Positions 25,046 through 59,308 of a stretch of DNA of 64,000 nucleotides are shown here, one piece after another. Position 1 is the stretch's first letter. Each line of letters starts with the position of its first letter. A program made the translations under genes and the position numbers. The notes beneath the pieces are model-generated. The model did no database searches. It was not told the origin of the DNA and saw only the letters and a program-made list of their open reading frames with translations. The stretch is from Candidatus Pseudoruminococcus merdavium (GTDB lineage Bacteria > Bacillota > Clostridia > Oscillospirales > Ruminococcaceae), in NCBI GenBank assembly GCA_904419745.1, contig CAJFSS010000007.1:1-64000 (forward strand). Reading direction: 5' to 3'.

Positions 25046-25060
25046 AAGAGATCCTCCCCT

Positions 25061-25402
25061 CTATTTAAGCCTTTTTATCAGTTCCACGGCTTCCTCAATC
25101 ACCTGGGTATTCCCTTTCTGCACTTCCTCAACCACACAGGTTTCCAGGTGACTCTGCAAAACCAGATACCCAAAGGATTGAAGCGCGCTTTCCACTGCGG
25201 CAACCTGCATCAGGATATCCCCACAATAGCGGTTATCATCCAGCATTTTACTGATACCGCCAAGCTGCCCGACCATCCGTTTGATACGGTTTTGCAGCAG
25301 GGTCAGTTCCCTTCCACTGCGGGGCGTCGCCTTGTGGTGACAGGGACATTCGCGCTGCTGCCCGGGGGCATTTGTCTTCTTTTCCTGTTTTTCCATCTGC
25401 AA
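25061..25402 (-). CDS. csoR: CsoR-family metal-sensing transcriptional repressor
   Basis: 113 aa with a CsoR/RcnR helical-bundle pattern (C-H-C metal ligands; ...YCGDILMQVAAVESAL...). Encoded directly upstream of copA. Confidence 0.85.
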   Translation of the reverse strand: MQMEKQEKKTNAPGQQRECPCHHKATPRSGRELTLLQNRIKRMVGQLGGISKMLDDNRYCGDILMQVAAVESALQSFGYLVLQSHLETCVVEEVQKGNTQVIEEAVELIKRLK

Positions 25403-25423
25403 GCCTCCTCAAAATACCCGATA

Positions 25424-25465
25424 GGGGTATTTCGTTTTCTCTATTATAATACCCCCTATGGGTAT
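25424..25465. promoter_or_regulatory. Two canonical CsoR operators, ATACCC-GATAG-GGGTAT and ATACCC-CCTAT-GGGTAT, flanking a TATAAT -10 element upstream of csoR-copA
   Basis: Both boxes are perfect 6-N5-6 inverted repeats and match the known GC-rich CsoR operator architecture. They lie 22 and 47 bp upstream of the csoR start. Confidence 0.7.
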
Positions 25466-25770
25466 TTTCAACCCCCTTTTGAAAAAAACTTTACTTTTTT
25501 ACTGGGAATTCCTTTTTCTTCTTTCTTCTCCACCTGATTGCCATAGATTGAGTATGGGAGATTTTTTAGCCCATTTTTTAAAGGGATACACATACCAAAA
25601 TCTTATAATCAGCACCATTTGACAGGTAAAACCTTTCCAGTTATGATGATGACAGATAAAAATCAAAAAAAGAGGGATTTTTGTGAAAGAGATGCGCAGA
25701 AAAAGGGCAATTGCTACCCGTTTGGGAATACTGTGTGGAGGTGAAAGCTAATTCAAAAGGAGAATCTATT

Positions 25771-26460
25771 ATGAATCATATTCCAAACCCAGATGTCGTT
25801 TTCCCAAACGAATATGGAACTACCTGTTTTCTGAAAAACGTAATTACCGCCCCGAATATTATCGTTGGGGACTATACCTATTATGACGACCCAGTAGATC
25901 CAACCGGATTCGAACACAATAATGTCCTGTTCAACTGGCCGGAATTTGGAGATCGTCTCATAATTGGGAAATTCTGTGCCATTGCAAGCGGGGTACAGTT
26001 TATTATGGGGAGTGCAAACCATCGGATGAACAGTATCAGCACCTATCCCTTCCACGTCTTTGGCGGAATATGGGAAGAAAATACCCCTCCCCATCTCTCC
26101 CAGCTCCCCTTTAAAGGGGATACAGTCATCGGAAATGACGTCTGGATTGGACGGGAAAGCGTGATTTTACCCGGCGTCCATGTAGGCGACGGGGCTATCA
26201 TCGCCGCAAATTCCGTGGTTTCCAAAGATATAGAGCCATATACTCTTGTGGGCGGAAATCCGGCGAAACCAATCCGGAAGCGCTTTGATGAAGAACTGGT
26301 TTCCATGCTCCTTACTCTGCGTTGGTGGGACTTTCCCCCGGAAAAACTGGCCGATTTCCTGCCTTTCCTGTGTGACAGTGATCTTTCCAAAGTAAAAACC
26401 ATCATTGAAAACCTGATCAATCAATCTTCCGTAGAACCTAATTCTACAAAGCTGCTGTAA
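25771..26460 (+). CDS. vat: Vat-family streptogramin A O-acetyltransferase (xenobiotic acetyltransferase with hexapeptide repeats)
   Basis: 229 aa starting at MNHIPNP, with the ribosome-binding site AAAGGAGAA. Strong resemblance to Vat(D)/Vat(B), including GDYTYYD, IGKFCAIASGV...GSANHRM, GNDVWIGRESVILPGVHVGDGAIIAANSVV and LVGGNPAKPIRKRF. Confidence 0.85.
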   Translation: MNHIPNPDVVFPNEYGTTCFLKNVITAPNIIVGDYTYYDDPVDPTGFEHNNVLFNWPEFGDRLIIGKFCAIASGVQFIMGSANHRMNSISTYPFHVFGGIWEENTPPHLSQLPFKGDTVIGNDVWIGRESVILPGVHVGDGAIIAANSVVSKDIEPYTLVGGNPAKPIRKRFDEELVSMLLTLRWWDFPPEKLADFLPFLCDSDLSKVKTIIENLINQSSVEPNSTKLL

Positions 26461-26548
26461 AATTTCCAGAAAAGGACTGCAACCCCAGCAGAAATCGTTA
26501 CAAATATTGGCTTTTTTAAATAATAAAACATATGGCAAGCCAAAAATC

Positions 26549-26592
26549 AAAATTTCCCCTTCCAGCAGTAGTACTGGAAGGGGAAATTTTGA
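26549..26592. terminator. Bidirectional terminator: a 16 bp perfect stem, aaatttccccttccag...ctggaaggggaaattt
   Basis: A long perfect hairpin with flanking A- and T-runs, lying between the convergent vat (+) and the SCA-type ATPase (-). Confidence 0.85.
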
Positions 26593-26598
26593 TCCCAT

Positions 26599-33327: not shown

Positions 33328-33723
33328 CTAGGTATTTTGCTCTGACGGGCCGACTCCATTTTTCAGAAAATATTGTTTCAGCGCTTCAAAGCTCTCCGCA
33401 CTAAGGGCATGCTCCATCCGACAGGCGTCCTTCATGGCAATATCCTTGTCTACACCTAGGCTGCACAGGACATCGGAAAACAGAAGATGCCTCTCATAAA
33501 TGGTTTCCGCCAGTGTCCTTCCCTGTTTCGTGAGGGAAATCTCATGGTTCTCTCCCATCTGAATATATCCACCGTTTCTCAGGTTTTTCATCGCTACGCT
33601 GACGCTCGCTTTAGAGACATTCAGTTGCGCCGCAATATCCACCGAGCGTACTGCGGCGCCGGTACGGTTTTGTAAAATCAAAATCATTTCCAGATAATCT
33701 TCACCGGACTCCATAATTTTCAT
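33328..33723 (-). CDS. MntR/DtxR-family metal-dependent transcriptional regulator (no C-terminal SH3 domain)
   Basis: 131 aa. It aligns with B. subtilis MntR across the HTH and the dimerisation/metal-binding domain (SGEDYLEMIL..., ...ERHLLFSDVL..., ...MEHALS...). Confidence 0.8.
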   Translation of the reverse strand: MKIMESGEDYLEMILILQNRTGAAVRSVDIAAQLNVSKASVSVAMKNLRNGGYIQMGENHEISLTKQGRTLAETIYERHLLFSDVLCSLGVDKDIAMKDACRMEHALSAESFEALKQYFLKNGVGPSEQNT

Positions 33724-35659: not shown

Positions 35660-35704
35660 CAAAACACCCCATTCCCAAGGATTTTGGGAATGAGGTGTTT
35701 TTTA
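35660..35704. terminator. Terminator downstream of hydF: ACACCCCATTCCCAA-ggatt-TTGGGAATGAGGTGT followed by TTTTTT
   Basis: A long imperfect stem with a strong T-run on the plus strand and a moderate one on the minus strand. Confidence 0.65.
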
Positions 35705-36898
35705 TTCCGGCAGGACAATCTTATCAAGAATTCCGGTCAGTTTTGCAATCAAGATTCCATAATTGGTCATCGCAACGCCCTGCGCCTGTGCGAGAGCCGC
35801 ACGGGAAAGCAGAAAACGGCGGTTAAACATACATCCACCACAGTGCACAACCAAATCATACCTCCGCAGATCGTGCGGGAAATCCGTCCCTGAGACATGC
35901 TCGACTGTGATCCCGGGCCCAATCCGTTTTCTGAGCATGGCAGGGATTTTTACCCGACCGATATCCTCTGTGAGCGGGGCGTGGGTGCAGGCCTCTGCAA
36001 TCAGGACCCGAGAGCGTTCTGTCAGGGAATCCAGCTTGTCAGCTCCCCGACGGAACACAGAGATATCACCCTTATATGCCGCAAAGAGGACGGAAAATGA
36101 AGTGAGCAATGTCCCTTTTGGTACCAGAGGATAAACCTCCTGAAATACCTGAGAATCCGTGATAATCAATTTTGGCGGTTGCTTTAAAACCTCCAGCGCT
36201 TGTGAAAGACGTTGCGGCGTGGTATTGATGGAAATACAGTCTTTTTCCAACATTTCCCGGATGGTCTGCACCTGTGGCAAAATCAACCTGCCTTTAGGCG
36301 CTTCGGAGTCCTGCGGCATGACCAGGACAACCACATCCCCTGCCTGTACCAGGTTTCCAGTAATGCTTTGCATACCGAAATCTTCTGGTATCCGGCGAAG
36401 GATCCTCTCGAGCAGCTCTCCGATCCCCTCTTTGGTTCTACTGCTTACGACAATAGGGTTCAGTCCAAGCTGTGCTTGTACTTTGGAAGCTATCTCCGGG
36501 ATATCGTCCAATTCGTCCGCTTTATTGACCACAGCTAGGAATGGAACTTTAGCTTCCTTGAGCTTGTTTGCCCATTCCTTTTCCAAAGAGAGTTCCGGTG
36601 AGGAACACACAATCAGCGCAAGATCCGCACGGGACAGGGTCTGCTCCGTCTTTTGTACGCGTAATTTTCCCAAATCCCCGCTGTCGTCAAAGCCCGCCGT
36701 ATCAATGAAAACACAGGGACCAATTCCCGGGATTTCCATCGCCTTGAAAACCGGGTCTGCGGTAGTTCCGGCATGTTCGGAAACAATGGACAATTCCTGT
36801 CCGGTAATCGCATTGAGAAGGGAGGATTTTCCCGCGTTCCTCCTGCCGTAAATCGCAATATGGAGCCTGTTTGCCTGCGGTGTGGTATTCATCTGCAA
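35702..36898 (-). CDS. hydF: [FeFe]-hydrogenase H-cluster maturation GTPase HydF
   Basis: 398 aa with the GTPase G1 motif GRRNAGKSSLLNA and a C-terminal Fe-S-binding CxH...HCGGC motif. Adjacent to hydG and hydE. Confidence 0.9.
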   Translation of the reverse strand: MQMNTTPQANRLHIAIYGRRNAGKSSLLNAITGQELSIVSEHAGTTADPVFKAMEIPGIGPCVFIDTAGFDDSGDLGKLRVQKTEQTLSRADLALIVCSSPELSLEKEWANKLKEAKVPFLAVVNKADELDDIPEIASKVQAQLGLNPIVVSSRTKEGIGELLERILRRIPEDFGMQSITGNLVQAGDVVVLVMPQDSEAPKGRLILPQVQTIREMLEKDCISINTTPQRLSQALEVLKQPPKLIITDSQVFQEVYPLVPKGTLLTSFSVLFAAYKGDISVFRRGADKLDSLTERSRVLIAEACTHAPLTEDIGRVKIPAMLRKRIGPGITVEHVSGTDFPHDLRRYDLVVHCGGCMFNRRFLLSRAALAQAQGVAMTNYGILIAKLTGILDKIVLPE

Positions 36899-36906
36899 GC
36901 CCTCCT

Positions 36907-38325
36907 TTAAAAACGGAAATCCCTCATGCCGCCATCCATATCATGTAAATGTTTGTACACAATTTCCCGCACTTTTTCATTCGGGATGGTCTCAGCTTCC
37001 CGCGCAATCATATCCAGGGCAAGCTGTTTTGTCTCCTCATCCGCATAGTCCTCAGCAAATTCTTTGAGCGTCATCAAAGCATTGGGCAAACAGCAGTTTT
37101 TGATCTGTCCCGCTTTTACCAGCGACATAAAGCGGTCACCAGTTCTGCCTTCCCGGTAGCAGGCGGTGCAGAAACTCGGCAGATATCCAAGCTTCAGCAG
37201 CCAGTTGACTACCTGGCCAAGCGTACGGTTATCACTGATTTCAAATTGGGAAGAATCTTCTTCCTCCTCTTCTGTTTCCGCATAGCCTCCGACACTGGTA
37301 CGGGAACCGCCACTAATTTGGGATACACCATATTTGAGAACCATTTCACGGGTCTTCTTGGATTCTCTTGTGGAGATAATCAGCCCTGTATATGGGACAG
37401 CAATCCGCAAAATAGCGACAATTTTCTGGAACAATTCATCGGAAATGCCGTTTTTAAATTCAGAAGCGTCAATATCGTCCGCATCTCTCAGGCGTGGAAC
37501 GCTGATTGTGTGCGGCCCGACGCCATGAACGGCTTCCAGATGTTCTGCATGCATCAGTAAACCGACAAAATCATATTTATAGAGATTTAATCCAAAAAGT
37601 ACACCACAGCCGACATCGTCTATACCGCCTTCCATGGCGCGATCCATGGCCTCGGTATGGTAATTATAGTTGTGCTTCGGGCCTGTGGGATGCAGCAGTT
37701 CATATTGTTCTTTGTTGTAAGTTTCCTGAAACAGGATATAAGTTCCAATACCTGCCTCTTTGAGTTTGCGGTAATTTTCTACTGTCGTCGCCGCAATATT
37801 AACATTGACACGGCGGATAGCTCCGTTTTTATGCTTAATGGAATAAATGGTTTTGATACTCTCCAGCACGTATTCAATTGGGCAGTTGACAGGGTCTTCT
37901 CCTGTCTCCAAAGCCAGGCGCTTATGCCCCATATCCTGTAAAGCGATGACTTCCCTACGGATTTCTTCCTGAGAAAGCTGTTTTCTCGGGATATGCTTGT
38001 TCTTTGCATGATACGGACAGTAAGTACAACCATTGACGCAGTAATTGGAAAGGTAAAGTGGAGCAAACATGACAATCCGGTTTCCATAAAACTCCTGTTT
38101 AATCTTGGACGCCTGCTCAAAAATACGTTGAAGCGCTTGTTCATCCTCACACATCAGAAGAAGCGCAGCTTCCCGATGAGTTAGTCCCTTTAACTCATCA
38201 GTTTTATCAATAATCTTATTAATCAGTGTAAGATTATCCTTGTTTTCCTCCGCCCATGCAATGGTGTCCTTAATTTCTGTATCGTCAATAAATTCGGTTG
38301 CCTTTAAAGAGTATTTGTCATACAT
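36907..38325 (-). CDS. hydG: [FeFe]-hydrogenase H-cluster radical SAM maturase HydG (tyrosine lyase)
   Basis: 472 aa. Radical SAM cluster CVNGCTYC plus a C-terminal auxiliary cluster CTACYREGRTGDRF. Confidence 0.9.
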   Translation of the reverse strand: MYDKYSLKATEFIDDTEIKDTIAWAEENKDNLTLINKIIDKTDELKGLTHREAALLLMCEDEQALQRIFEQASKIKQEFYGNRIVMFAPLYLSNYCVNGCTYCPYHAKNKHIPRKQLSQEEIRREVIALQDMGHKRLALETGEDPVNCPIEYVLESIKTIYSIKHKNGAIRRVNVNIAATTVENYRKLKEAGIGTYILFQETYNKEQYELLHPTGPKHNYNYHTEAMDRAMEGGIDDVGCGVLFGLNLYKYDFVGLLMHAEHLEAVHGVGPHTISVPRLRDADDIDASEFKNGISDELFQKIVAILRIAVPYTGLIISTRESKKTREMVLKYGVSQISGGSRTSVGGYAETEEEEEDSSQFEISDNRTLGQVVNWLLKLGYLPSFCTACYREGRTGDRFMSLVKAGQIKNCCLPNALMTLKEFAEDYADEETKQLALDMIAREAETIPNEKVREIVYKHLHDMDGGMRDFRF

Positions 38326-38349
38326 AACTTCTCGTCTTCTTTCTTTTTC

Positions 38350-39309
38350 TCAGTATGGGATTTTCCCAATTTCTCTAATTTCCTGTTCAATTTGCTTTCT
38401 GCCCGAGGCAATATCTGTCTCCTGAAATTTTGCAGGGTAAATTTGGTACAGCCGTTTAAGTTTGGCCGGGGTGACTTTCTGCATCACCACATTTGCTCCA
38501 CAGGCAAATACCAGATCTTTACAACCAGGATCGAGTACGCCAAGGGCGGTTGTGGCAGGCAGGTTTGCATTTGGCAGTAACATGCGGGCGATCGCGACTG
38601 CCCGCAGGGTCAGTTCCGCACTCCCATGTGGCGCTGTCCCCAATGGAGTATCCGGATGGGGTAAAAAGGGGCCGATTCCCGCCATATCGCATCCGATCTC
38701 TTTGAGCAAAAGCAGATCCTGAGCAACTGTTTCCAGTGTCTGTCCGGGCAACCCAATCATAAAGCCACCGCCGGTTTCAAGCCCTGCACGCTTGATAAAA
38801 CGCTGGCAATCCACCCGGTTTTTGAGGGCCGAATCCGGATGAAGGGACTGGTACAACACCGGATCGGACGTTTCATGCTTCAGCAAATAGCGATCCGCAC
38901 CACATTCTTTAAAATAGGAATAGGTCTGCTCGTCAAACTCCCCACAGGAGAGCGTCACGGCAATACCGCATGGCTTGATTTTTCGGACAATTTCTCCAAT
39001 CATTGCAGGAGTATAATAGGGATCTTCCCCGGATTGCAGCACGATCGTGCGATACCCGGCCTCCTTTGCATCCAAGGCTGTTTCTACAATCTCCTGCGGC
39101 TGCATCCGGAAACGTTCCAATGCAGAGTTATTGCGGTTTAACCCGCAATAACGGCACTGCCGGCGGCAATAGTTGGAAAACTCAAGCAGTGCCCGAATAT
39201 GTACCCTGTCTCCCACATGTTCCTGGCGAATTCTATCCGCCAGGGCAAATTCCGCTGAAAAATCCTCCTTGCCAAGTAGAGAGACAATGGTATCTTTTGT
39301 AAGGTTCAT
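38350..39309 (-). CDS. hydE: [FeFe]-hydrogenase H-cluster radical SAM maturase HydE
   Basis: 319 aa with a biotin-synthase-like radical SAM core, CRRQCRYCGL, in the hydE-hydG-hydF context. Confidence 0.8.
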   Translation of the reverse strand: MNLTKDTIVSLLGKEDFSAEFALADRIRQEHVGDRVHIRALLEFSNYCRRQCRYCGLNRNNSALERFRMQPQEIVETALDAKEAGYRTIVLQSGEDPYYTPAMIGEIVRKIKPCGIAVTLSCGEFDEQTYSYFKECGADRYLLKHETSDPVLYQSLHPDSALKNRVDCQRFIKRAGLETGGGFMIGLPGQTLETVAQDLLLLKEIGCDMAGIGPFLPHPDTPLGTAPHGSAELTLRAVAIARMLLPNANLPATTALGVLDPGCKDLVFACGANVVMQKVTPAKLKRLYQIYPAKFQETDIASGRKQIEQEIREIGKIPY

Positions 39310-39569
39310 GCATTTTCTCCCGCCTTTTGATATACTGTTTTAACATTGATTCCCTCAACCATGCCAAGTTTTCCAGACATGGCGCTGATAGTATCATTGG
39401 GAGCATCAACTACCACGCAGATAATGCTGACGCCCCTGTCCCGGTAGGGAATGCCCATCCTACCCACAATGCAGGAAGAAAATTCATGTAAAATAGAGTT
39501 GATTTTTTCCGCCGCTTCCGGATTCTCCACAATAATGCCAATCAGAGCAATTCGTTTTCCCAGAACAAT
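39306..39569 (-). CDS. TM1266-family putative iron-only hydrogenase system regulator
   Basis: KRIALIGIIVENPEAAEKINSILHEFSSCIVGRMGIPYRDRGVSIICVVVD... matches the roughly 85-aa TM1266 family. It has no in-frame ATG, so the start is probably a non-canonical codon (CTG, GTT or ATT) after the ribosome-binding site GGAAAGGGGGAA. The ORF track's TTG at 39617 sits right after a terminator and is unlikely to be real. Confidence 0.6.
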   Translation of the reverse strand: MVLGKRIALIGIIVENPEAAEKINSILHEFSSCIVGRMGIPYRDRGVSIICVVVDAPNDTISAMSGKLGMVEGINVKTVYQKAGENA

Positions 39570-39613
39570 TCCCCCTTTCCAAAAAAACTTATACCAGAAG
39601 CTCCTGTAAGACA

Positions 39614-39648
39614 ACAAAAAAGCCGTGCCCCTTGTGAAAAGGCACAGC
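39614..39648 (-). terminator. Terminator separating the histidine kinase gene from the hyd maturase operon: GTGCC-ttttcacaag-GGCAC, then GGCTTTTTT in the transcript
   Basis: A hairpin followed by a run of six U on the minus-strand transcript. Confidence 0.6.
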
Positions 39649-39875: not shown

Positions 39876-41354
39876 TCAACGGCCACCACCTGTATGTGTT
39901 GATTCTTGTGAACAAACCAGATGAAAATATATGTCCCTTTTTGTATCCAGCACAACCTCAAACTTTCCGGAAAAACGGAGTGTAATACATTTGCTAAACT
40001 CCCCTACTGTCCCATCAAATTCTGAAATCTTCATTGTAATGCCATTTGCCTGTAAAATTTCAAGCATATTGGCAATGCCTTCGCCTGTGCCTCCAGTAGT
40101 AAGCCCGCGTTCTCCAAAGTTTTCGAGTATAAAAGCTGGAAAAGGTTCTCCTGTATCATAAACATCGATTTCATAATATCCATCATCGGTAATTCCCATA
40201 TTGATCTCGACCGCTTCATCAAAGCGGATCTTTTTCCGCAGAATAGCGCGAAAAGCATTTGTCAGCAGATCTCCAAGCAATTCTTCTAACTTTAACTGCG
40301 GAATCAAGTGCCTTCGGAATAAATGCTGAGGGGAATCAAATACTCTTACATCAAAACTAATATCTTCCTTGTGAGCCCGTTCATAGTACTGTTCAAGCAG
40401 CGCATCCACAAATATAACTCCGGTTTTCGCCAGCGTGCTTGCCTGGAGAAATTCCCTCCTGCTCTCCTCCATCTGCTCTTCATATAATCTGTCAATTTCT
40501 TCCACAAGAGGGCGGAATTTCTCCAATATTTTAATATCCGTGGTTTTCCTTTTCAGTTCTTCTAAACTCGCGTCAAATTTCCGTTTCATTGCTGGAATAA
40601 ATTCTTTATAGTGGTGAACCTGGCTGCGTAATTTCTTGATTTCTATCAGCAATTTTTGTTTTTCTTCATTTTCTCTCCTGCGTTCCCACAACCACACAGC
40701 GAGTCCAATACAACTGACTACGGCCACTAAGATAAATGCAAGTTCTGCATGGTTTGCAGTAATAGAAGCAGGCATTACAATTACAAAATTGCATAGCATG
40801 ATAATACAGCACAGTATACTAAATGCAGTAAACCAATAGGGACGGACTTTTTTCTTTTTTTGTTTTCCCGTAATAAAACAGATTAGCAACATCTCTGCAA
40901 TATAAAACGTTTGGTTGAGCACCGCCGTCATTACCCAGTTACCCACAGGATTTATTGCATAAACAATGCCATAAGCAACCGATCCCAAAAGGATATTGGA
41001 AAACAGTGACAGAGTGTATAAATCAAAGTGCATCAAAATAGAATTTGTCATCTTTCCCCTGTGCCTGAGATGGTGGTAAATACCTGCTAAAATCATCACC
41101 AAAACTCCAACAAAGGCGACGGGGAAGACGTCTTCCAGTAGATAGGTTGCCGCAGTACATACGACAGCAATCACCAATGACTCCAACACCATTTTGGGGA
41201 TACTTCTAACAGTCCCCATGTAACTGAGAACTATAAATTGACAGGCAAAATACATGGTCATATGCTTCCACGCAAACAATAATTCAACCAAACTCAACAC
41301 TCCCCCACTTTTTCGGCATTCTCCATCATACCAGCAACACAGGGGGAAAAGCAC
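39876..41354 (-). CDS. orphan AgrC-like (HPK10 / GHKL) membrane sensor histidine kinase
   Basis: A polytopic N-terminal sensor domain, an H-box-like SQVHHYKEF, and a C-terminal GHKL ATPase with G-boxes (GERGLTTGGTGEGIANM). No response-regulator gene is adjacent. The start is uncertain; 41261 and 41255 are alternative start sites. Confidence 0.7.
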   Translation of the reverse strand: MLFPLCCWYDGECRKSGGVLSLVELLFAWKHMTMYFACQFIVLSYMGTVRSIPKMVLESLVIAVVCTAATYLLEDVFPVAFVGVLVMILAGIYHHLRHRGKMTNSILMHFDLYTLSLFSNILLGSVAYGIVYAINPVGNWVMTAVLNQTFYIAEMLLICFITGKQKKKKVRPYWFTAFSILCCIIMLCNFVIVMPASITANHAELAFILVAVVSCIGLAVWLWERRRENEEKQKLLIEIKKLRSQVHHYKEFIPAMKRKFDASLEELKRKTTDIKILEKFRPLVEEIDRLYEEQMEESRREFLQASTLAKTGVIFVDALLEQYYERAHKEDISFDVRVFDSPQHLFRRHLIPQLKLEELLGDLLTNAFRAILRKKIRFDEAVEINMGITDDGYYEIDVYDTGEPFPAFILENFGERGLTTGGTGEGIANMLEILQANGITMKISEFDGTVGEFSKCITLRFSGKFEVVLDTKRDIYFHLVCSQESTHTGGGR

Positions 41355-41735
41355 AATTAACTCTTAATTCTATATCTTTCAAAAAGAATTTCATCAAAAA
41401 GGATAACTTTTATCAGGTTACACCATTGCATTTAATCCTATTTTTACAATCTTTTATGTGACCCCGAGCCTGTTATCCTGTTTTGGAATGGGTTTTCTCC
41501 CTGTTCTATAAGAATACCGTAACACAGCAGAGAAATTTTTCCTGTTGTTTTTCGCGTATAAAAAACAGGAAATCCATTGCTTTTAAAACCAAAATGTCGA
41601 AAAACACGCAATTTTTAGTAATATCCAAACAAATATGTCGATTTTCGCGGTAAATTCCCAGACACACAAACAGCCCATTACGGCATATATTATGAGTACG
41701 GGACATATTTTCCCGAGGATACGGAGGAATGAACT

Positions 41736-42077
41736 ATGCGTTTTAATCATGACTGTGGCTGTCATTGTGGCTGTAGAGATGGCCATAAAAAAGAATGGAA
41801 CGACAACTATGAAAACCGTGGCAACTATGGAAATAATGGGATCCCTATCGGGTATCTCTATGCTCCAGTAAGCTTTTACAGCAATGCCTGTGATTCCGAT
41901 GACCACTGCGATTGCAAAAAGCACTGCGATTCTGAAAATAAATGGGATTATTGCAAAAAGCACTGCGATTCTGAAAATAAATGGGATTGCGGTAAAAAAG
42001 ACCATTCTAATGGCTGTTCCTGCGGCATTGCGTTTATTAAATGCTCAGACTGCTTTACCGACAGCTGCTGCCGCTAA
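41736..42077 (+). CDS. Cys/His/Asp-rich small protein with an internal 13-aa tandem repeat
   Basis: 113 aa, about 17 Cys and 7 His. Strong ribosome-binding site GGAGGAA. A 39 bp tandem duplication encodes CKKHCDSENKWD(Y) twice. A strong terminator follows the gene. Confidence 0.65.
   Translation: MRFNHDCGCHCGCRDGHKKEWNDNYENRGNYGNNGIPIGYLYAPVSFYSNACDSDDHCDCKKHCDSENKWDYCKKHCDSENKWDCGKKDHSNGCSCGIAFIKCSDCFTDSCCR
41911..41988 (+). repeat. 39 bp tandem direct repeat, two copies, inside the Cys-rich gene
   Basis: attgcaaaaagcactgcgattctgaaaataaatgggatt is repeated with period 39. Confidence 0.85.
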
Positions 42078-42140
42078 CGTTTGGCCGCCCGCCTTTGGGC
42101 GGTCTACTTAGACCGGACACAACCCATCCGTATCCATATG

Positions 42141-42178
42141 GTGCCGGAGACTTCTGTCTCCGGCACTTTGTGCTTTTT
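42141..42178 (+). terminator. Intrinsic terminator of the Cys-rich gene: GTGCCGGAGAC-ttct-GTCTCCGGCAC followed by TTTGTGCTTTTT
   Basis: An 11 bp perfect stem with a T-run. Confidence 0.85.
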
Positions 42179-42316
42179 AAAACATGGTCGTAGTATTTTT
42201 GAAATTTATCTGAAAAATAAGACTTTCCAGATTAGCTCACAATATAACAGAATATGCCAACAATCCAAGGAGATTTTTTACAAGTCAGAACGATTCTCTG
42301 TCAGTATATCATCAGC

Positions 42317-43936
42317 TTACCTGCCAGAGTTGGAACGATACTGGGTATGCGTTTTTCTTTTCCGGAATAATTTGTTTTGCATTCCACTCTTTAACCCTAA
42401 GATCCCCCGCGATGCGAGTAGGATGAAAAACGGCAAGTACAAAAAAAGATAACGTGAACGAGCCTCAAAAAGGAGTAAAAACAAAAACAATCCCAAAATA
42501 GACATCTGCATCACAAATTCCATCCCGATCCCCTTTTTACGGACACTAATAAAGGCATACCAGGCATTTCCGAATAAAAGAAACGCCCATATTGCATGCA
42601 GATACTGCCCATAATATTGTTGATAAAATGGGGTTTCACAATAGGTAAAATTCTGTAGCAGCCCTCGGACCCCCGTTTCTGTTTTGGGAATATCCCTATG
42701 GAAATGTCCTTCCCCGCCATAAAAGAAAGTCCCGTCTGTTGTAATCCAGATATATTTGTGATAGAGGTGTTGCAAAAAACCTGTAAAACCATAATCGGTC
42801 AAACGCTGGCGAATCACTAAGAGATTGTAAAAAATTTTTTCTTTCTTTCCTTGAATGGACTTTGTCGTATCCAAATCTTTCCCATAATAGGCGCCAAAAA
42901 GCCCTCCTTCATCATACAGGCCCATCATCATAAAATGGGTCATGGGGATTTCATTTTCATAAAAAAGCACCTGCTGGTTATAAGGACCCAGTATTTTTTC
43001 TTTTGCCAAGTTTTGTATTCCAATAACCATTCCCAAACCCAGAATGAAAGCGCCCACTGCACTGCTAAAACGAAGGAAAGCCGTTTTGTCCATTTTTCCT
43101 TTCTTTTTCAACAGCAACCAGATCCCGTATGCAATCCAGACGATCACTACCGTTGGTTTTATCCAATACCCCATTAATGTAGCGGCACCTAGGAAAAATG
43201 CCAATACTGCCTTTTTCCATAAAATCTGCTGTTCCCTGTACAGCAACAGGAAAAAGAAAATTGCAGCAGGAAACGGAAGCGCCATTGTGTCAGAGTAAGG
43301 GACTGTCAAATAGGGGGAAAGCCCTACCACAGAAATCATCAACACAAAAGACAGGTAATATCCTCTTGTGGGGAGAAGCTTTTTGCATGCAAGCATTCCG
43401 AAAACAATTCCCAGGTCCAAAAATAAGATATTAACCCCAATACAAACCGCCCAGACATTATAAATACCAAACAAATAGGCTAAATGATTCGCCGCTTTAT
43501 ATAGAAAGGCCAAAAGGATATTGTTGGGATAAGTCAAAAAATAAAAGGGGTCTCCCTCCGGATCCCCCTGCAACACAACCGTAGAACAATCCCACCCAAT
43601 TTCTGTATATGTATTCTTTGCAAACCAGAGCTGGAACAAAAACAGAAAGATAGTTCCAGCTACCATGATCGAAATTTTATGCTTGACGAAAAAAATTCTG
43701 CATTTCTTCCAGTGTGTGAGAAAAAATTCCCCTGCCCAAAGCAAAATGAAAAATAGCGCTATCCATATTAAAACCTGTACCTGGTCAATTGGCACAATTC
43801 TTCTATATTGCGAAGAGTTGAAAAACAAATTCCCGATGGACATCACCAGCAGTATAAGAACCCCCACCTCAAACAGACGCAGGCTTCCCACTCCTATCCT
43901 AGAAAACAGATGCTTATTTTTTCCCAATTTCTTCAT
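42317..43936 (-). CDS. polytopic GT-C-type membrane glycosyltransferase (GtrC-like acceptor transferase)
   Basis: About 540 aa with many transmembrane helices, encoded immediately downstream of a GtrA-GtrB-like pair. Confidence 0.6.
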   Translation of the reverse strand: MKKLGKNKHLFSRIGVGSLRLFEVGVLILLVMSIGNLFFNSSQYRRIVPIDQVQVLIWIALFFILLWAGEFFLTHWKKCRIFFVKHKISIMVAGTIFLFLFQLWFAKNTYTEIGWDCSTVVLQGDPEGDPFYFLTYPNNILLAFLYKAANHLAYLFGIYNVWAVCIGVNILFLDLGIVFGMLACKKLLPTRGYYLSFVLMISVVGLSPYLTVPYSDTMALPFPAAIFFFLLLYREQQILWKKAVLAFFLGAATLMGYWIKPTVVIVWIAYGIWLLLKKKGKMDKTAFLRFSSAVGAFILGLGMVIGIQNLAKEKILGPYNQQVLFYENEIPMTHFMMMGLYDEGGLFGAYYGKDLDTTKSIQGKKEKIFYNLLVIRQRLTDYGFTGFLQHLYHKYIWITTDGTFFYGGEGHFHRDIPKTETGVRGLLQNFTYCETPFYQQYYGQYLHAIWAFLLFGNAWYAFISVRKKGIGMEFVMQMSILGLFLFLLLFEARSRYLFLYLPFFILLASRGILGLKSGMQNKLFRKRKTHTQYRSNSGR

Positions 43937-44348
43937 CCTTTTTAAAAGCAAACAGTCGCTGGCCAAGATAATTTAATCCGGTAAACAGGCACATACCAAA
44001 CAACATGGATATTTGGTCAGTAATAGACTGTTCTAATGAAAAGCTTGACAACATCCAGTTTACTGCCGGCTGTGCAATACTATATGCAACCACATAGCAA
44101 ATCGCCACATTGAGTGCGAATTTCACTCCTGTTTTCACTACGGAATCCTTGTTCTGGAAAGTAAAATTTTTATTGAGTACAAAACTCAAAATGCTACCAA
44201 GCACATAGGAAATTGCAGAAGAACCCCAATACCCCAAATGGGCCAGATTGTACAATAAAAACATAGTAGCCGCACTAAACAGAGTATTCGCAATACCTAC
44301 CAGCATAAATTTTAAAAGCCTGTAGTCAAATAACTCCCGAATTCTCAT
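43914..44348 (-). CDS. gtrA: GtrA-family flippase-like membrane protein
   Basis: 144 aa with four transmembrane helices, matching the GtrA family pattern (LLKFMLVGIANTLFSAATMFLLYNL...). Confidence 0.8.
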   Translation of the reverse strand: MRIRELFDYRLLKFMLVGIANTLFSAATMFLLYNLAHLGYWGSSAISYVLGSILSFVLNKNFTFQNKDSVVKTGVKFALNVAICYVVAYSIAQPAVNWMLSSFSLEQSITDQISMLFGMCLFTGLNYLGQRLFAFKKDEEIGKK

Positions 44349-44351
44349 GTA

Positions 44352-45335
44352 TTACACATCCTTGTCCGTTTTTTTACTTTCCAGGTATTCCTGGATAATA
44401 AAGCGCGGACGCGCTTTGGTTTCCATATAAATTTTCCCAATATATTCGCCCACTATTCCAACGGAAACCATCAGCAGGCCTACCAGAAACCAAAGGCTTG
44501 CCATAATTCCAAATGCAAGGCTTGCCGTCCCAAGGCAGGCTTTGACAATCAGCCAGATCAACAGAACGATTCCAACCAGGGCAAGTAATATCCCCGTTGC
44601 GGTAATTATCCGGATTGGTTTGACACTCAATGAAGTAATCCCGTCCATGGCGAGAGCAAGCATTTTTTTCAATGGATATTTGCTTTCTCCTGCAAAGCGT
44701 TCATTCCGTTCAAACATCACATAATCTGTACGGTAACCAATCATAGGAATCAGTCCGCGCAAAAACAGGTTGACTTCTTTAAATTGAGCGAGCCCATGGA
44801 GGGCCCGTCTGCTCATCAAACGATAATCTGCATGGTTAAAGACAATGTCCGCTCCCATGAGATTCATCAAATGGTAAAACCCCTCTGCGGTAAACCGTTT
44901 AAAAAATGTGTCTGTTGCCCGTTTGCTACGCACACCATAGACGATATCACACCCGTCCAAATATTTATCGACCATTTCATCCATGGCGTTAATATCGTCC
45001 TGCAAGTCTGCGTCCATAGAAATCACCATGTCTGCGTCGTCCATTACTGTCATCAAGCCAGCAAGCAGGGCGTTCTGATGTCCCCGGTTCCGGCTCAGAT
45101 TAATCCCCGTAAACAATGAGTCGTTTTCATGAAATTCGCAAATCATCTTCCATGTGTGATCTTTGGAGCCATCGTTAACCAATACGACGCGGCTTTCTTT
45201 AGAGATCTTGTTCTGCTCCATAAGAAAAAGCATTTTCGATTTCAGGCGCCTTGTTGTTTCGGGCAAAACCTCCTGTTCATTATAACAGGGAATTACTACA
45301 TATAGTGTATTTTTCACTGCTGACACTCCTGACAT
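44352..45335 (-). CDS. GT2-family glycosyltransferase, GtrB / polyprenyl-phosphate sugar transferase-like
   Basis: 327 aa. An N-terminal GT-A domain (VVIPCYNEQE... DAD...) and two C-terminal transmembrane helices. Confidence 0.85.
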   Translation of the reverse strand: MSGVSAVKNTLYVVIPCYNEQEVLPETTRRLKSKMLFLMEQNKISKESRVVLVNDGSKDHTWKMICEFHENDSLFTGINLSRNRGHQNALLAGLMTVMDDADMVISMDADLQDDINAMDEMVDKYLDGCDIVYGVRSKRATDTFFKRFTAEGFYHLMNLMGADIVFNHADYRLMSRRALHGLAQFKEVNLFLRGLIPMIGYRTDYVMFERNERFAGESKYPLKKMLALAMDGITSLSVKPIRIITATGILLALVGIVLLIWLIVKACLGTASLAFGIMASLWFLVGLLMVSVGIVGEYIGKIYMETKARPRFIIQEYLESKKTDKDV

Positions 45336-57012: not shown

Positions 57013-57798
57013 TTAACTGATTTTCAGCTGAAGGCGGAGTCTGTCGGCAATCATTGCGATAAACTCAGAATTTGTCGGTTTTCCCTTTCCATTGTGGATG
57101 GTGTACCCGAAATAAGAATTCAGCGTATCAACATCTCCCCTGTCCCATGCAACCTCAATTGCATGCCGGATAGCACGTTCAACACGGGATGATGTGGTAT
57201 CATGCTTTTTGGCAACTGTTGGATAAAGTTGTTTTGTCACAGCATTGATAATATCATGATCTTTGATGGCAAGGATGATTGCTTCACGCAGATAATGATA
57301 CCCTTTAATATGTGCGGGAACACCGATTTGGTGGATAATATCCGTCACAAGCATTTCCAAATCCGGTTCCAGCTGTCCCTGGTCAGCTGGGCCGACACCC
57401 AGGGTTTTGTGTACAGACGGTTGATGATACCCGGACAACTGAGCAATCCGTTCGGCCATAATTTCCATATCAAACGGCTTTAAAAAATAATAAGATGCGC
57501 CACACGAAAGCATTTCATGTTCCAGCATAGGATTGTCCACACTGGACATGACTAAAAACAGTGGGATCTTTCCTCCTGCTTCCCGAATGCGTTTCATAAC
57601 CCCGATAGCATCCAGATAGGGCATAAAAACATCCATCAGAACAATATCCGGGTGCTCGGCAAGAATTGTGTCGGTGACTTTGGTTCCGTCCTTTTGTGTC
57701 ATTAACGGCTCAAATCCGTAGGATTTTAATAAATTGCAGCAGATTGCGCCAAAATCCTTGCTGTCGTCTGCGATTAATACTTTTGGCTTGTTGTCCAT
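57013..57798 (-). CDS. spo0A: sporulation transcription factor Spo0A
   Basis: A receiver domain followed by the Spo0A-specific '0A box' effector region ([21 protein letters not shown]...[17 protein letters not shown]). Start is at [12 protein letters not shown]. Confidence 0.95.
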
Positions 57799-57937
57799 GT
57801 TACTTCCCCCATTGGTAGTAGTTGTTGAGTACACGATTATATTACCATAATTTTACAGGTTATGCAAGGGGTTTCTGCCAAAAAATGTAAATTATTTTTG
57901 CAAGCCACCCCTTATTTCGCTTTACAACTCCACAAGG

Positions 57938-59155
57938 TCACTGCGTCTGCTGTTCTTCGATGATTTCCTGCGCACCATCCAGCATATTTTCAATGAAAAT
58001 GCCGTATCCACGTGTCGGATCATTGACAAAAACATGGGTAACTGCACCAACAATATGACCATTTTGGAGAATTGGGCTCCCGCTCATTCCCTGTACAATC
58101 CCACCTGTTTTTTCTAAAAGCGCAGGATCAGTCACTTTCACCACCATATTTTTGGTCTTGGCCTTTTCCGAATAACTGACCTTCTCAATTTTAATACTAT
58201 ACTTCTTTGGGGTATCGCCGTCAATAGTAGCCAGGATTTCTGCCTCGCCCTCCTGCACTTCCTGCTTGAGTGCAATTGGCATGGCCTCATGTCCGGTATA
58301 GGCTTCAAATAAAACCCCATAGATGCCGGTTTCCGTATTTTGCATCAGTCTACCAACATCCTGGGCACCGGCAAAACTGCCTCTTAATTCTCCGGGAGAA
58401 CCAGATTGTGCCTTTACCACATCATTGATGGAGACGTCCACAACTTCGCCCGTCATCAGCGGCATGATTTCCCCGGTATCCACATCACAGATAGCATGAC
58501 CAAGGCCCCCAAACACGCCGGATTGTGGACTATAAAAAGTCAAGGTGCCAATTCCCGCGGAACTGTCCCTTACCCACATGCCAGCCCGATATCCTGTATG
58601 CGAAACGGATACCACTGGGGTTAAAGTGGTCTCATAAGTCTCGTTTTTATGAATTGCAGTTATTTTCAATGGCTGGCCATTGCTGTTTTCCACCATTTCA
58701 GAAACCTGCTCGTTGGTATTGACCTGTTTTCCTTCAATCTGAGTAATTACATCGCCAACTTGAATCCCTGCCTGTTTGGCGGGATTTACTGTCCCATCCG
58801 CTGTTTCCACATCGGACATGGAAACCACCAGCACGCCCTGTGTAAACATTTTTACACCAAATGGCGTCCCACAGGGAACTACTGTTTGACGATCGACTAC
58901 ATCGACAGAAACTTTTTTTACGGGAACCATCCCAAACAGCTTGACATCAACCTGGTAACTGCCATTCGATGCCCCCCGCTGTTCGCTGCCTGTCACCGCC
59001 GAGCTTAAAAAACCAGTATTTCCAAAGGATAAAGTATCCCCTGAAAAAACACTATAATGATCTGCTAAGCTGGAACCTGTATAACCTACTGCCGCAAACG
59101 CCACTGTCGAAATTGCCAGTAAGGACGCCGCGGCTCTTTGAATCCATTTTTTCAT
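57938..59155 (-). CDS. spoIVB: SpoIVB peptidase (S55)
   Basis: A signal/anchor sequence, a PDZ domain (GIQVGDVITQIEGKQV) and an S55 peptidase domain. The spoIVB-spo0A gene order is conserved. Confidence 0.85.
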   Translation of the reverse strand: MKKWIQRAAASLLAISTVAFAAVGYTGSSLADHYSVFSGDTLSFGNTGFLSSAVTGSEQRGASNGSYQVDVKLFGMVPVKKVSVDVVDRQTVVPCGTPFGVKMFTQGVLVVSMSDVETADGTVNPAKQAGIQVGDVITQIEGKQVNTNEQVSEMVENSNGQPLKITAIHKNETYETTLTPVVSVSHTGYRAGMWVRDSSAGIGTLTFYSPQSGVFGGLGHAICDVDTGEIMPLMTGEVVDVSINDVVKAQSGSPGELRGSFAGAQDVGRLMQNTETGIYGVLFEAYTGHEAMPIALKQEVQEGEAEILATIDGDTPKKYSIKIEKVSYSEKAKTKNMVVKVTDPALLEKTGGIVQGMSGSPILQNGHIVGAVTHVFVNDPTRGYGIFIENMLDGAQEIIEEQQTQ

Positions 59156-59308
59156 TTCAATTCCTCCTGTGTAAAATGCCACACAGTTACTATGCCACGG
59201 TCGCATAGGAATTATCTCTGGAATTTGATTCGTAATTTGGAAAAAGCAATGTCACTTTTAGTAAATTATGGTATACTTTAAGAGTACTTTGCGAAGAGGT
59301 GATATGTT

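What the first reader, a model, noticed from the sequence alone, without database searches (positions are those of the whole stretch)
41736..42077. A Cys/His/Asp-rich 113-aa protein with a recent 39 bp tandem duplication, divergent from an orphan AgrC-like histidine kinase
The gene has a strong ribosome-binding site and a strong terminator. It encodes about 17 Cys and 7 His in 113 residues, in clusters such as CGCHCGC and CDCKKHCD. A 39 bp unit encoding CKKHCDSENKWD(Y) is repeated twice, perfectly, which suggests recent expansion or repeat-number variation. The composition fits a metal-binding storage or buffer protein (metallothionein-like), a Cys-rich spore-coat or exosporium protein, or a precursor of a Cys-crosslinked peptide. 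The gene is divergently transcribed from an AgrC-type GHKL kinase that has no adjacent response regulator. This is an unusual pairing.
Basis: seen in the sequence. Interest (0 to 1): 0.7.

Follow-up and report, generated by a model that had tools for sequence, protein, structure and literature searches.

The report
Orphan cysteine-rich probable spore-coat protein
This is a real, fast-evolving small cysteine-rich gene found only in a handful of closely related uncultured spore-forming gut Clostridia; its conserved promoter looks like a late-sporulation (sigma-K) promoter, so it is most likely a new spore-surface building block, not a metallothionein or a signalling peptide.

Summary
The ORF at 41736..42077 (+) encodes 113 aa with 17 Cys, 14 Asp and 7 His. 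It has a GGAGG ribosome-binding site, a strong terminator and a perfect 39-bp x2 tandem repeat. The repeat is polymorphic: strains 99.5-99.8% identical carry one copy (100 aa).

The protein matches nothing in Pfam, NCBIfam, PHROGs or PDB, and AlphaFold gives pLDDT 32. Searches of 5.8 and 1.84 billion proteins find relatives in about five closely related uncultured Clostridia lineages only.

The conserved parts are an N-terminal CxC, a central NG(I/V)P(I/V)GYLYAPxxF motif and a C-terminal CSC..CSDCFxDSC(C)R. The His/Cys/Asp/Lys-rich "CKKHCD" stretch is a species-specific linker; relatives have Asn/Gly-rich linkers with 0-2 His.

Upstream, all seven loci keep CACAC-N15/16-CATAnnnTA, and only the n positions vary. 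That is the sigma-K pattern. The window also holds spo0A and spoIVB.

Best reading (about 0.45): a late mother-cell, disulfide-crosslinked spore coat or exosporium protein. This is inferred from sequence only; there is no expression or localisation evidence.

The divergent orphan kinase is linked in 7/7 loci and also evolves fast, but it fails the AgrC tests. A functional link remains open.

The parts
41663..41667 (+). -35-like element CACAC. It supplies the 'AC' of sigma-K-type promoters and lies 16 nt upstream of the -10-like element.
   Evidence: An ACAC core at this position is kept in all 7 loci (five of them read CACAC) although the spacer sequence has diverged. AC is the sigma-K -35 element according to PMC3789822.
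41684..41692 (+). -10-like element CATATATTA, matching the sigma-K/sigma-E pattern CATAnnnTA.
   Evidence: Across species the sequence is CATATATTA, CATATGCTA, CATATCCTA or CATACCCTA. Only the three 'n' positions vary.
41699..41715 (+). 5'-proximal stem-loop of the predicted mRNA (CGGGA-loop-TCCCG).
   Evidence: The stem is invariant in all loci. It is lengthened to 7-8 pairs in L006 and L008. All 5 pairs form in all 5 distinct sequences, but with no covariation.
41717..41725 (+). 5'UTR segment GGATACGGA, overlapping the first bases of the Shine-Dalgarno sequence. It is complementary to the 3'UTR segment at 42127..42135.
   Evidence: I19. L006 has TGGATATGGA paired with TCCATATCCA, a compensatory change. 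The formal covariation test is underpowered and not significant.
41723..41727 (+). Shine-Dalgarno sequence GGAGG, 8 nt before the ATG.
   Evidence: It is invariant in all loci.
41736..42077 (+). CDS of the 113-aa Cys-rich protein. Conserved blocks are residues 1-13 (M-x-x-x-x-x-CxC), residues 33-50 (NNGIPIGYLYAPVSFYSN) and residues 93-113 (GCSCGIAFIKCSDCFTDSCCR). Residues 51-92 form a species-specific Cys/His/Asp/Lys-rich linker.
41911..41988 (+). Perfect 39-bp x2 tandem duplication encoding CKKHCDSENKWD(Y). It is polymorphic: most sampled strains carry one copy.
42083..42104 (+). First 3' hairpin, GGCCGCCC-loop-GGGCGGTC, immediately after the stop codon and with no T-run. It is followed by the invariant sequence TCTACTTA.
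   Evidence: The stem sequence is invariant and the loop varies in the 6 loci where the 3' end is available (the exact pattern is scored in the window and in five fetched loci). It is unique in the window, with 0.02 matches expected by chance.
42127..42135 (+). 3'UTR segment TCCGTATCC, complementary to the 5'UTR segment at 41717..41725.
42140..42177 (+). Intrinsic terminator: a 12-bp stem with 8 G-C pairs and a 4-nt loop, followed by a T-run.
39876..41291 (-). Divergently transcribed orphan membrane histidine kinase of 471 aa, starting at TTG 41291 with ribosome-binding site GGGGGAG. It has a hydrophobic N-terminal half, an invariant QVHH(Y/F)KE(F/Y)xPA motif and N/G1/G2 boxes.
   Evidence: It lies next to the Cys-rich gene in 7 of 7 orthologous loci.
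41325..41333 (-). Candidate extended -10 element (TGGTATGAT) of the kinase promoter. It sits inside an ~85-nt leader that is conserved in 5 loci.
   Evidence: Read directly from the sequence. Conservation is shown in alignment columns 1-85. This is an inference and was not tested.

Best explanation
The gene encodes a lineage-restricted, fast-evolving, non-secreted small protein. It is probably transcribed late in sporulation in the mother cell from a sigma-K-type promoter and laid down in the outer spore layers (coat, crust or exosporium).

Proposed mechanism:
1. The conserved terminal cysteine clusters (N-terminal CxC; C-terminal CxC-x(4-6)-CxxC-x4-C) form inter- or intramolecular disulfide crosslinks, or possibly metal-bridged ones.
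2. The conserved aromatic GYLYAPxxF motif mediates docking or self-association.
3. The low-complexity linkers act as spacers. They are Asn/Gly-rich in relatives and Cys/His/Asp/Lys-rich here. Their length changes by replication slippage; the 39-bp duplication is the latest such event.

The monocistronic mRNA carries a 5' stem-loop, a strong Shine-Dalgarno sequence and two 3' hairpins. These features are typical of stable, highly translated messages.

Shown here: the gene is real and under purifying selection, the family is very narrow, the repeat is polymorphic, the promoter footprint is conserved, the host has sporulation genes, and the gene is linked to the kinase.

Inferred only: sigma-K dependence, location on the spore, crosslinking, and the role of the UTR elements.
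For: 1. Promoter footprint. All 7 loci keep an ACAC-containing -35-like element 15-16 nt upstream of CATAnnnTA. Only the n positions vary (TAT, TGC, TCC, CCC) and the spacer sequence diverges. This matches the sigma-K description in Clostridioides difficile and Bacillus subtilis: the -10 is shared with sigma-E, and the -35 is AC for sigma-K against ATA for sigma-E (PMC3789822).
2. Spore-former host. The window encodes Spo0A (TIGR02875, 294 bits against a cutoff of 200) and SpoIVB (TIGR02860, 423 bits against 305).
3. No N-terminal hydrophobic signal sequence. This fits synthesis in the mother-cell cytoplasm.
4. Composition and evolution resemble spore-surface proteins.
   - The family has 9-17 Cys, low-complexity linkers and internal repeats. 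L006 even duplicates the GYLYAP motif.
   - Divergence is fast: 35-48% identity, while the neighbouring HydE/F/G proteins are 87-96% identical.
   - Repeat number is polymorphic within the species.
   - Cysteine-rich proteins are described as outer spore-layer building blocks in PMC6101409, PMC7333573 and PMC5434927, and CotG as a modular component of the B. subtilis spore coat in PMC9765600 (titles and abstracts listed). That coat proteins are poorly conserved between species is stated in PMC3789822.
5. Purifying selection acts on the + frame.
Against: - There is no expression, proteomic or localisation evidence; the organism is an uncultured MAG.
- A single match to AC-N16/17-CATAnnnTA is not above chance in the window: 4 observed against 4.9 expected. 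The promoter call rests only on conservation among about five closely related lineages.
- There is no sequence or structural similarity to any known coat or exosporium family. AlphaFold is uninformative, with pLDDT 32.
- The tight, conserved linkage to a fast-evolving orphan kinase is not explained by a purely structural role.
- Conserved upstream repeats suggest extra regulation of unknown kind.
Confidence: 0.45

Rival explanations
1. The protein is a small metal- or redox-binding regulator that works with the divergently transcribed orphan kinase. It could modulate or serve as a ligand for a sporulation kinase, or act as a CsfB/Gin-like Zn-binding sporulation regulator. The conserved CxC...CxC-x6-CxxC-x4-C residues would form a Zn or Fe-S knuckle.
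For: - The kinase and the Cys-rich gene are divergent neighbours in 7 of 7 orthologous loci, even where the outer flanks differ. L006 has a radical SAM enzyme, DUF2344 and ribosomal protein L19 in place of TM1266-HydEGF, and the downstream flanks differ between species.
- Both genes evolve much faster than their neighbours: kinase 55-69% and Cys-rich protein 35-48% identity, against 87-96% for HydE/F/G.
- Paralogous kinases (39-40% identity) lack the gene.
- Small Cys-rich sigma-K-controlled regulators exist: CsfB, per the abstract of PMC4383634.
- Orphan kinases feed Spo0A directly in Clostridia (general knowledge), and spo0A is present.
Against: - All the loci come from very closely related organisms (HydG 95-96% identical), so shared gene order is weak evidence.
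- Asn/Gly-rich low-complexity linkers, internal motif duplication and copy-number polymorphism are unusual for a specific regulator.
- There is no match to the Gin family or any other regulator family.
- A late mother-cell promoter would express the protein long after sporulation kinases act.
- The kinase's divergence is spread over all its domains and is not confined to the sensor half.
Confidence: 0.2
2. The protein is a metallothionein-like metal storage or buffer protein for Zn, Cu, Cd or Fe.
For: - The window allele has 15% Cys and 6% His, with CGCHCGC and CKKHCD clusters.
- The window is rich in metal-homeostasis genes: FeoB, three P1B-type ATPases and an MntR-like repressor.
- HydEFG maturases lie nearby.
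Against: - The His/Cys clusters sit in the non-conserved linker. Orthologues have 0-2 His and Asn/Gly-rich linkers.
- Aromatic residues make up about 10-12% of the protein. Classical metallothioneins have almost none (general knowledge).
- There is no hit to a metallothionein model.
- The metal genes are more than 10 kb away and are simply part of the shared gene order.
- L006 lacks the Hyd neighbourhood.
- The promoter footprint is sporulation-type, with no metal-sensor operator next to the gene.
Confidence: 0.08
3. The protein is the precursor of a secreted Cys-crosslinked peptide (a RiPP or pheromone) that is sensed by the polytopic kinase, forming an agr-like signal-receptor pair.
For: - A membrane sensor kinase lies next to a small gene.
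- Both genes evolve fast, as pherotype pairs do.
- The sensor half of the kinase is somewhat more diverged than its cytoplasmic half in most comparisons.
Against: - None of the loci has a conserved AgrB-like protein, C39-peptidase ABC exporter, radical SAM/SPASM enzyme, lanthipeptide enzyme or cyclodehydratase nearby.
- The adjacent HydE and HydG score as hydrogenase maturases, and that neighbourhood is absent in L006.
- No RiPP precursor model matches.
- There is no signal or leader sequence.
- The conserved parts are both termini plus the centre, which is not a leader/core layout.
- The kinase lacks the AgrC-type HATPase_c_5 match, and no LytTR regulator is adjacent.
Confidence: 0.06
4. The real gene is the antisense 140-aa hydrophobic ORF (41583..42005, - strand), or the region is non-coding.
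For: An open antisense frame exists here and in L003.
Against: - Differences concentrate at the third codon position of the + frame (296/238/588).
- 23 of 26 invariant residues use synonymous codons.
- Indels between species are in multiples of three.
- The ribosome-binding site and the terminator are on the + strand.
- An antisense frame free of stop codons is expected from a sense strand rich in Cys, Asn, Gly, Asp and Lys codons and poor in Leu and Ser codons.
Confidence: 0.02

Closest known systems
Cysteine-rich spore outer-layer proteins (C. difficile CdeC/CdeM, C. sporogenes CsxA, Bacillus CotY/ExsY)
   Same: Both are Cys-rich, made without a signal peptide in a spore former, controlled by mother-cell late promoters, and poorly conserved between species. 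Both have a presumed role in disulfide-stabilised assemblies (PMC6101409, PMC7333573, PMC5434927, PMC3789822).
   Different: There is no detectable sequence or profile similarity. This protein is much smaller, at 81-113 aa. It has its own motifs (GYLYAPxxF and CSDCFxDSC) and long Asn/Gly-rich or Cys/His/Asp/Lys-rich linkers. Location on the spore is untested.
CotG-like modular repeat proteins of the Bacillus spore coat
   Same: Both have a central low-complexity region built of short tandem repeats. Here the unit is 13 aa and rich in Lys, His and Asp, and it differs in copy number between strains (PMC9765600).
   Different: The repeats have a different composition, are Cys-containing, and number only 1-2 copies. 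No CotH kinase partner was seen. There is no homology.
CsfB/Gin, a small Zn-binding anti-sigma factor of sporulation
   Same: Both are small Cys-containing sporulation proteins that can be under sigma-K control (PMC4383634 abstract).
   Different: CsfB has two CxxC pairs in a compact domain and no low-complexity linkers (general knowledge). No Pfam match was found here.
Bacterial metallothioneins (SmtA/BmtA, MymT)
   Same: The window allele is high in Cys and His and has CxC and CxxC clusters.
   Different: The clusters are not conserved in orthologues. Aromatic residues are abundant. No family match was found, and the regulatory context is sporulation-type.
agr-type quorum sensing (AgrD peptide with AgrC kinase)
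   Same: Both pair a small gene with a polytopic orphan-looking sensor kinase, and both genes diverge fast.
   Different: There is no AgrB, no LytTR regulator and no HATPase_c_5 match. The genes are arranged divergently and not as an operon. The small protein lacks the AgrD architecture.

Membership tests
Cys-rich spore coat/exosporium proteins (functional class) | Encoded in an endospore-forming organism | tested here: met
   Spo0A scores 294 bits against a cutoff of 200 on TIGR02875. SpoIVB scores 423 bits against 305 on TIGR02860. Both genes are in the window.
Cys-rich spore coat/exosporium proteins (functional class) | Mother-cell (sigma-E/sigma-K) promoter | tested here: inconclusive
   The motif CACAC-N16-CATAnnnTA is present and phylogenetically footprinted in 7 loci. 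A single match is not above chance, and transcription was not measured.
Cys-rich spore coat/exosporium proteins (functional class) | Sequence homology to a characterised coat or exosporium family (CotY/Z, CdeC, CdeM, CsxA, CotG and others) | tested here: not met
   No Pfam, NCBIfam, PHROGs or PDB hit, even at E <= 1-10.
Cys-rich spore coat/exosporium proteins (functional class) | Physical presence in spore outer layers | not testable with these tools
   This needs spore proteomics or immunolocalisation in a cultured relative.
Bacterial metallothionein | Match to a metallothionein family model | tested here: not met
   No Pfam or NCBIfam hit.
Bacterial metallothionein | Metal-ligand Cys/His clusters conserved across orthologues; few aromatic residues | tested here: not met
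   The CKKHCD-type clusters lie in a linker that is absent from relatives. Family members have 0-7 His, and aromatic residues make up 10-12%.
Bacterial metallothionein | Stoichiometric metal binding | not testable with these tools
   This needs ICP-MS on recombinant protein.
AgrC-type (HPK10) histidine kinase (neighbour gene) | AgrC-type GHKL catalytic domain (Pfam HATPase_c_5) | tested here: not met
   Only the generic HATPase_c domain matches (PF02518, E = 3.5e-6). There is no PF14501 hit at E <= 0.1. The best PDB match is a FixL catalytic domain at E = 0.017.
AgrC-type (HPK10) histidine kinase (neighbour gene) | Genomic association with agrB/agrD and a LytTR response regulator | tested here: not met
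   None is present in the window or in any of the orthologous loci.
AgrC-type (HPK10) histidine kinase (neighbour gene) | Polytopic N-terminal membrane sensor followed directly by the DHp and catalytic domains | tested here: met
   The N-terminal ~215 residues are hydrophobic with multiple segments. A conserved QVHHYKEF motif is followed by N/G1/G2 boxes. This is a resemblance in architecture only.
RiPP or pheromone precursor | Conserved adjacent maturation or export genes | tested here: not met
   Across species the only conserved neighbours are the kinase and a small acidic orphan gene.
RiPP or pheromone precursor | Match to a known precursor family | tested here: not met
   NCBIfam, which includes many RiPP precursor models, gives no hit.

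The most novel reading that the evidence does not exclude
The orphan membrane kinase, the Cys-rich protein and, in most species, the small acidic protein together form a previously unknown, rapidly co-evolving sporulation signalling module. In this reading the Cys-rich protein is a redox- or metal-sensitive partner or ligand of the kinase, which feeds Spo0A or another regulator. Its translation would be gated by pairing between the 5'UTR and the 3'UTR that overlaps the Shine-Dalgarno sequence.
Probability: 0.1. Interest if true: 0.6.

Novelty: new member of a known kind. Interest (0 to 1): 0.3.

Why it matters
If the reading is right, this adds a new family to the cysteine-rich, repeat-bearing proteins that build the outermost layers of clostridial spores. 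The family is so far unannotated and is mis-called in at least one public assembly.

The case also shows in real time how such proteins evolve:
- a 13-residue unit is gained or lost between strains that are 99.7% identical;
- a core motif is duplicated in a sister species;
- overall divergence is far faster than in neighbouring genes.

This is useful for annotating uncultured gut Clostridia and for strain typing. It does not change any general concept. The one feature that goes beyond the ordinary is the conserved linkage to an equally fast-evolving orphan kinase, and it remains unexplained.

Tried and rejected
- Family and structure libraries. Pfam, NCBIfam and PHROGs scans, and a PDB profile search, of the protein and its orthologues found nothing.
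- Structure prediction. AlphaFold2 on the 7-sequence alignment gave pLDDT 32 and pTM 0.14, so no fold search was attempted.
- Protein searches. The exhaustive HMMER profile search returned only the family itself plus a spurious FN3-repeat protein, P0010.
- Contig scans. The genome contigs and metagenome-contig scans added only L003, L014 and L015.
- RNA families. Rfam on 41200..42400 gave only a chance lncRNA hit at E = 0.25.
- Promoter motif count. The sigma-K pattern occurs 4 times in the window against 4.9 in shuffles. I therefore do not use the bare match as evidence, only its conservation.
- 5'/3' UTR pairing. There is one compensatory pair, and 193 of 500 shuffles score as high. I keep it as an observation, not a claim. 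The RNA.duplexfold output was not interpretable and was ignored.
- Antisense ORF. Rejected on codon-position evidence.
- Second small gene. The acidic ~80-aa gene that follows the Cys-rich gene in relatives was sought in the window and is absent. It is also an orphan, with 6 clusters, so it gives no functional lead.
- Possible Spo0A boxes. TGTCGAA-like motifs occur upstream, but they are not statistically or phylogenetically solid enough to use.
- Link to HydEFG/TM1266. Rejected because L006 keeps the kinase and Cys-rich gene pair without that neighbourhood.

Full report
**1. The observation**

The ORF at 41736..42077 (+) exists as described and encodes MRFNHDCGCHCGC...CSDCFTDSCCR, 113 aa. It has 17 Cys, 14 Asp, 11 Asn, 11 Lys, 10 Gly and 7 His. 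A GGAGG lies 8 nt before the ATG. A 12-bp, 8-GC stem with a T-run follows at 42140..42167.

The 39-bp unit is repeated twice, perfectly, at 41911..41988 (TRF score 156). It sits inside an older, degenerate 18-nt periodicity.

The + frame is the coding one. Among six orthologues, substitutions fall 296/238/588 on codon positions 1/2/3. In 23 of 26 invariant amino-acid columns more than one codon is used, and all indels are in-frame. This rejects the 140-aa antisense ORF.

**2. How widespread it is**

No Pfam, NCBIfam, PHROGs or PDB family matches the protein or its orthologues. AlphaFold2 gives pLDDT 32.

A word-indexed search of 5.8 billion protein clusters found three clusters. An exhaustive profile search of 1.84 billion representatives found the same family plus one spurious repeat protein. 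Scans of GTDB species genomes and JGI metagenomes added one and two loci respectively.

Tracing the neighbouring kinase's orthologues uncovered two more copies that gene callers had missed or mis-framed: L006 and L008. Public data therefore contain about five species-level lineages, all uncultured Clostridia/Bacillota MAGs.

These lineages are close relatives. HydG is 95-96%, HydE 87-90% and HydF 87-88% identical between them. The Cys-rich protein, by contrast, is only 35-48% identical.

**3. What is conserved and what is not**

The alignments show three conserved blocks:
- N-terminal M-x-x-x-x-x-C-x-C;
- central N-G-(I/V)-P-(I/V)-G-Y-L-Y-A-P-x-x-F;
- C-terminal C-S-C-x(4-6)-C-S-D-C-F-x-D-S-C-(C)-R.

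Between the blocks lie low-complexity linkers. In relatives they are Asn/Gly-rich; family members have 9-17 Cys and 0-7 His.

The conspicuous CDSDDHCDCKKHCDSENKWD... stretch, which prompted the metallothionein idea, is a species-specific linker. In the L006/L015 species the GYLYAP motif itself is duplicated.

**4. The repeat is polymorphic**

The same 90% cluster holds 100-aa members that lack exactly one 13-residue unit. Five such contigs are 99.5-99.8% identical to the window over 8.3 kb and differ by a single 39-bp indel.

The one-copy allele is the commoner: 15 contigs were read for each of two variants. The two-copy allele is in the window, in L014 and in a few other contigs. One 89-aa variant ends in a frameshift inside the repeat.

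**5. Regulatory anatomy**

The intergenic DNA is poorly conserved overall. The 75 nt before the ATG, however, are almost invariant in all seven loci.

They contain CACAC, a 15-16-nt spacer of diverged sequence, and then CATATATTA, CATATGCTA, CATATCCTA or CATACCCTA. That is CATAnnnTA with only the n positions free.

Saujet et al. [quoted passage not shown] They quote a sigma-K promoter with -10 CATATAAT and -35 AC. The footprint here fits sigma-K. It does not fit the forespore sigma factors or a sigma-A -35.

A caveat applies. One match to this loose pattern is not above chance in 64 kb: 4 observed against 4.9 in shuffles. The evidence is the pattern of conservation, drawn from closely related genomes.

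The organism is equipped for sporulation. Spo0A (57013..57834) and SpoIVB (57938..59206) score above their curated cutoffs.

Downstream of the putative transcription start there is an invariant 5' stem-loop (41699..41715), which is extended in L006 and L008. After the stop codon comes an invariant-stem, variable-loop hairpin without a T-run (42083..42104). It is unique in the window. The terminator follows.

A 7-10-nt segment just 5' of, and overlapping, the Shine-Dalgarno sequence (41717..41725) is complementary to a 3'UTR segment (42127..42135). The position is the same in every locus, and L006 shows a C-G to U-A change. The formal covariation test has no power with five sequences, so this stays an observation.

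**6. The kinase**

The divergent gene most likely starts at TTG 41291 and encodes 471 aa. Its N-terminal half is hydrophobic. It has an invariant QVHH(Y/F)KE(F/Y)xPA motif and recognisable N, G1 and G2 boxes.

It matches only the generic HATPase_c domain, not the AgrC-type HATPase_c_5 domain. Its best PDB match is a FixL catalytic domain at E = 0.017. It has no adjacent response regulator, AgrB or LytTR protein. 'AgrC-like' is thus an architectural resemblance only.

The kinase family is itself tiny, with 8 clusters. The Cys-rich gene lies divergently next to the orthologous kinase in 7 of 7 loci. The pair stays together even where the outer flanks differ. Paralogous kinases (39-40% identity) lack it.

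The kinase also evolves fast (55-69% identity). Its divergence is spread over all domains and is not confined to the sensor half.

In every other species a second orphan gene follows the Cys-rich gene. It encodes an acidic ~80-aa protein. It is absent from the window.

**7. Interpretation**

The best-supported reading is a late mother-cell protein of the spore's outer layers. Five points support it:
- the sigma-K-type footprint;
- the spore-former host;
- the lack of a signal peptide;
- the Cys clusters at both ends, with an aromatic motif in the centre;
- the expandable low-complexity linkers and very fast divergence.

These match what is described for Cys-rich exosporium and coat proteins and for modular repeat coat proteins (PMC6101409, PMC7333573, PMC5434927, PMC9765600). 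They also match the poor conservation of coat proteins between species (PMC3789822). I give this reading about 0.45, because nothing here measures expression or location.

The main rival, at about 0.2, is a small metal- or redox-binding regulator that works with the kinase. It would explain the linkage, but it fits the low-complexity, slippage-prone architecture poorly.

The other readings are disfavoured for the reasons listed under rival explanations:
- metallothionein, about 0.08;
- RiPP or pheromone precursor, about 0.06;
- antisense or non-coding, about 0.02.

**8. Verdict**

The gene is real and is a new orphan family. It most likely belongs to a known kind, the fast-evolving Cys-rich spore-surface proteins.

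Interest is modest (0.3). The only feature beyond the ordinary is the conserved pairing with an equally fast-evolving orphan kinase, whose meaning is open.

Noticed in passing
L001:10628-10876, L002:1503-1742, L003:7714-7962, L006:4844-5095 (-), L007:5112-5351 (-), L015:3471-3722: A second orphan gene follows the Cys-rich gene in every other species but is absent from the window. It encodes an acidic ~80-aa protein with the conserved sequence (E/M)(Y/F)PVSSxT(E/D)CTGLIPTA...SYGxIY(D/N)IPL. It has only 6 clusters in 5.8 billion and no family match. Its upstream region in four loci carries GGATAA-N14-GGGAATACTG, faintly like a forespore-type promoter.
   Followed up: partly
window 41717-41725 and 42127-42135: A 9-nt segment of the 5'UTR that overlaps the Shine-Dalgarno sequence is perfectly complementary to a 3'UTR segment. 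The same positions pair in all loci (7-10 nt), and the L006 species shows one compensatory change. This suggests 5'/3' UTR pairing of the kind described for icaR or hbs, but the covariation test is not significant (193 of 500 shuffles score as high).
   Followed up: partly
window 42083-42104: A hairpin sits directly after the stop codon, with an invariant stem (GGCCGCCC/GGGCGGTC), a variable loop and the invariant tail TCTACTTA. It has no T-run, occurs once per locus and is more conserved than the coding sequence. Its function is unknown; it could be an mRNA-stability or processing element.
   Followed up: partly
window 41538-41649: The intergenic region holds several repeats. There is an inverted repeat TTTCCTGTTGTTT/AAAAAACAGGAAA (41538-41572). 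There are two copies of TGTYGWTTTTCGCG (41543 and 41636). There are two AAAC-AAA-ATGTCGA repeats (41586 and 41627) that contain Spo0A-box-like TGTCGAA/TGTCGAT. All are partly conserved in relatives except L002/L007, and they could be regulator binding sites.
   Followed up: partly
window 39876-41291 versus 35702-39617: The kinase (55-69% identity) and the Cys-rich protein (35-48%) evolve far faster than the adjacent HydF/HydG/HydE/TM1266 genes (79-96%) across the same genome pairs.
   Followed up: yes
L006:5272-5580 (-), L015:2987-3297: In this sister species the Cys-rich gene carries two copies of the GYLYAP motif. Public gene calls report a wrong-frame 201-223-aa ORF in its place. In L007 the gene was not called at all.
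   Followed up: yes
window 57013-59206 (-): A spoIVB-spo0A gene pair shows that the organism is an endospore former. SpoIVB scores 423 bits and Spo0A 294 bits, both above their curated cutoffs.
   Followed up: yes
window 35702-39617 (-): A complete [FeFe]-hydrogenase maturation cluster, HydF-HydG-HydE, lies here with a TM1266-like putative regulator, directly downstream of the orphan kinase on the same strand. The neighbourhood is conserved in most of the related loci but not in L006.
   Followed up: partly
window 1305-3410, 20378-28710, 33328-33723: The window is rich in metal-homeostasis genes: FeoB, three P1B-type heavy-metal ATPases (one CopA-like with CopZ-type domains at both ends) and an MntR/DtxR-like repressor. 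A Vat-like streptogramin acetyltransferase at 25711-26460 scores 275 bits, just under its cutoff of 300.
   Followed up: no
L004:6001-7407, L005:6001-7389: Paralogues of the orphan kinase (39-40% identity) sit in a different conserved context, with flavodoxin, a 68-aa ORF, a 759-aa metallophosphatase and YibE/F. There is no Cys-rich gene beside them.
   Followed up: partly
protein P0006 (ENA contig, 3.8 kb): An 89-aa allele of the Cys-rich protein ends in a frameshift inside the second repeat copy. It is either an assembly error or a slippage-generated null allele.
   Followed up: no
window 42317-45335 (-): Immediately downstream of the Cys-rich gene, and convergent with it, lies a glycosylation cluster: a TIGR03766-like/CHIM membrane glycosyltransferase (172 bits, below its cutoff of 500), GtrA and a GT2 glycosyltransferase. 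In this species the cluster occupies the place held by the acidic small gene in relatives.
   Followed up: no
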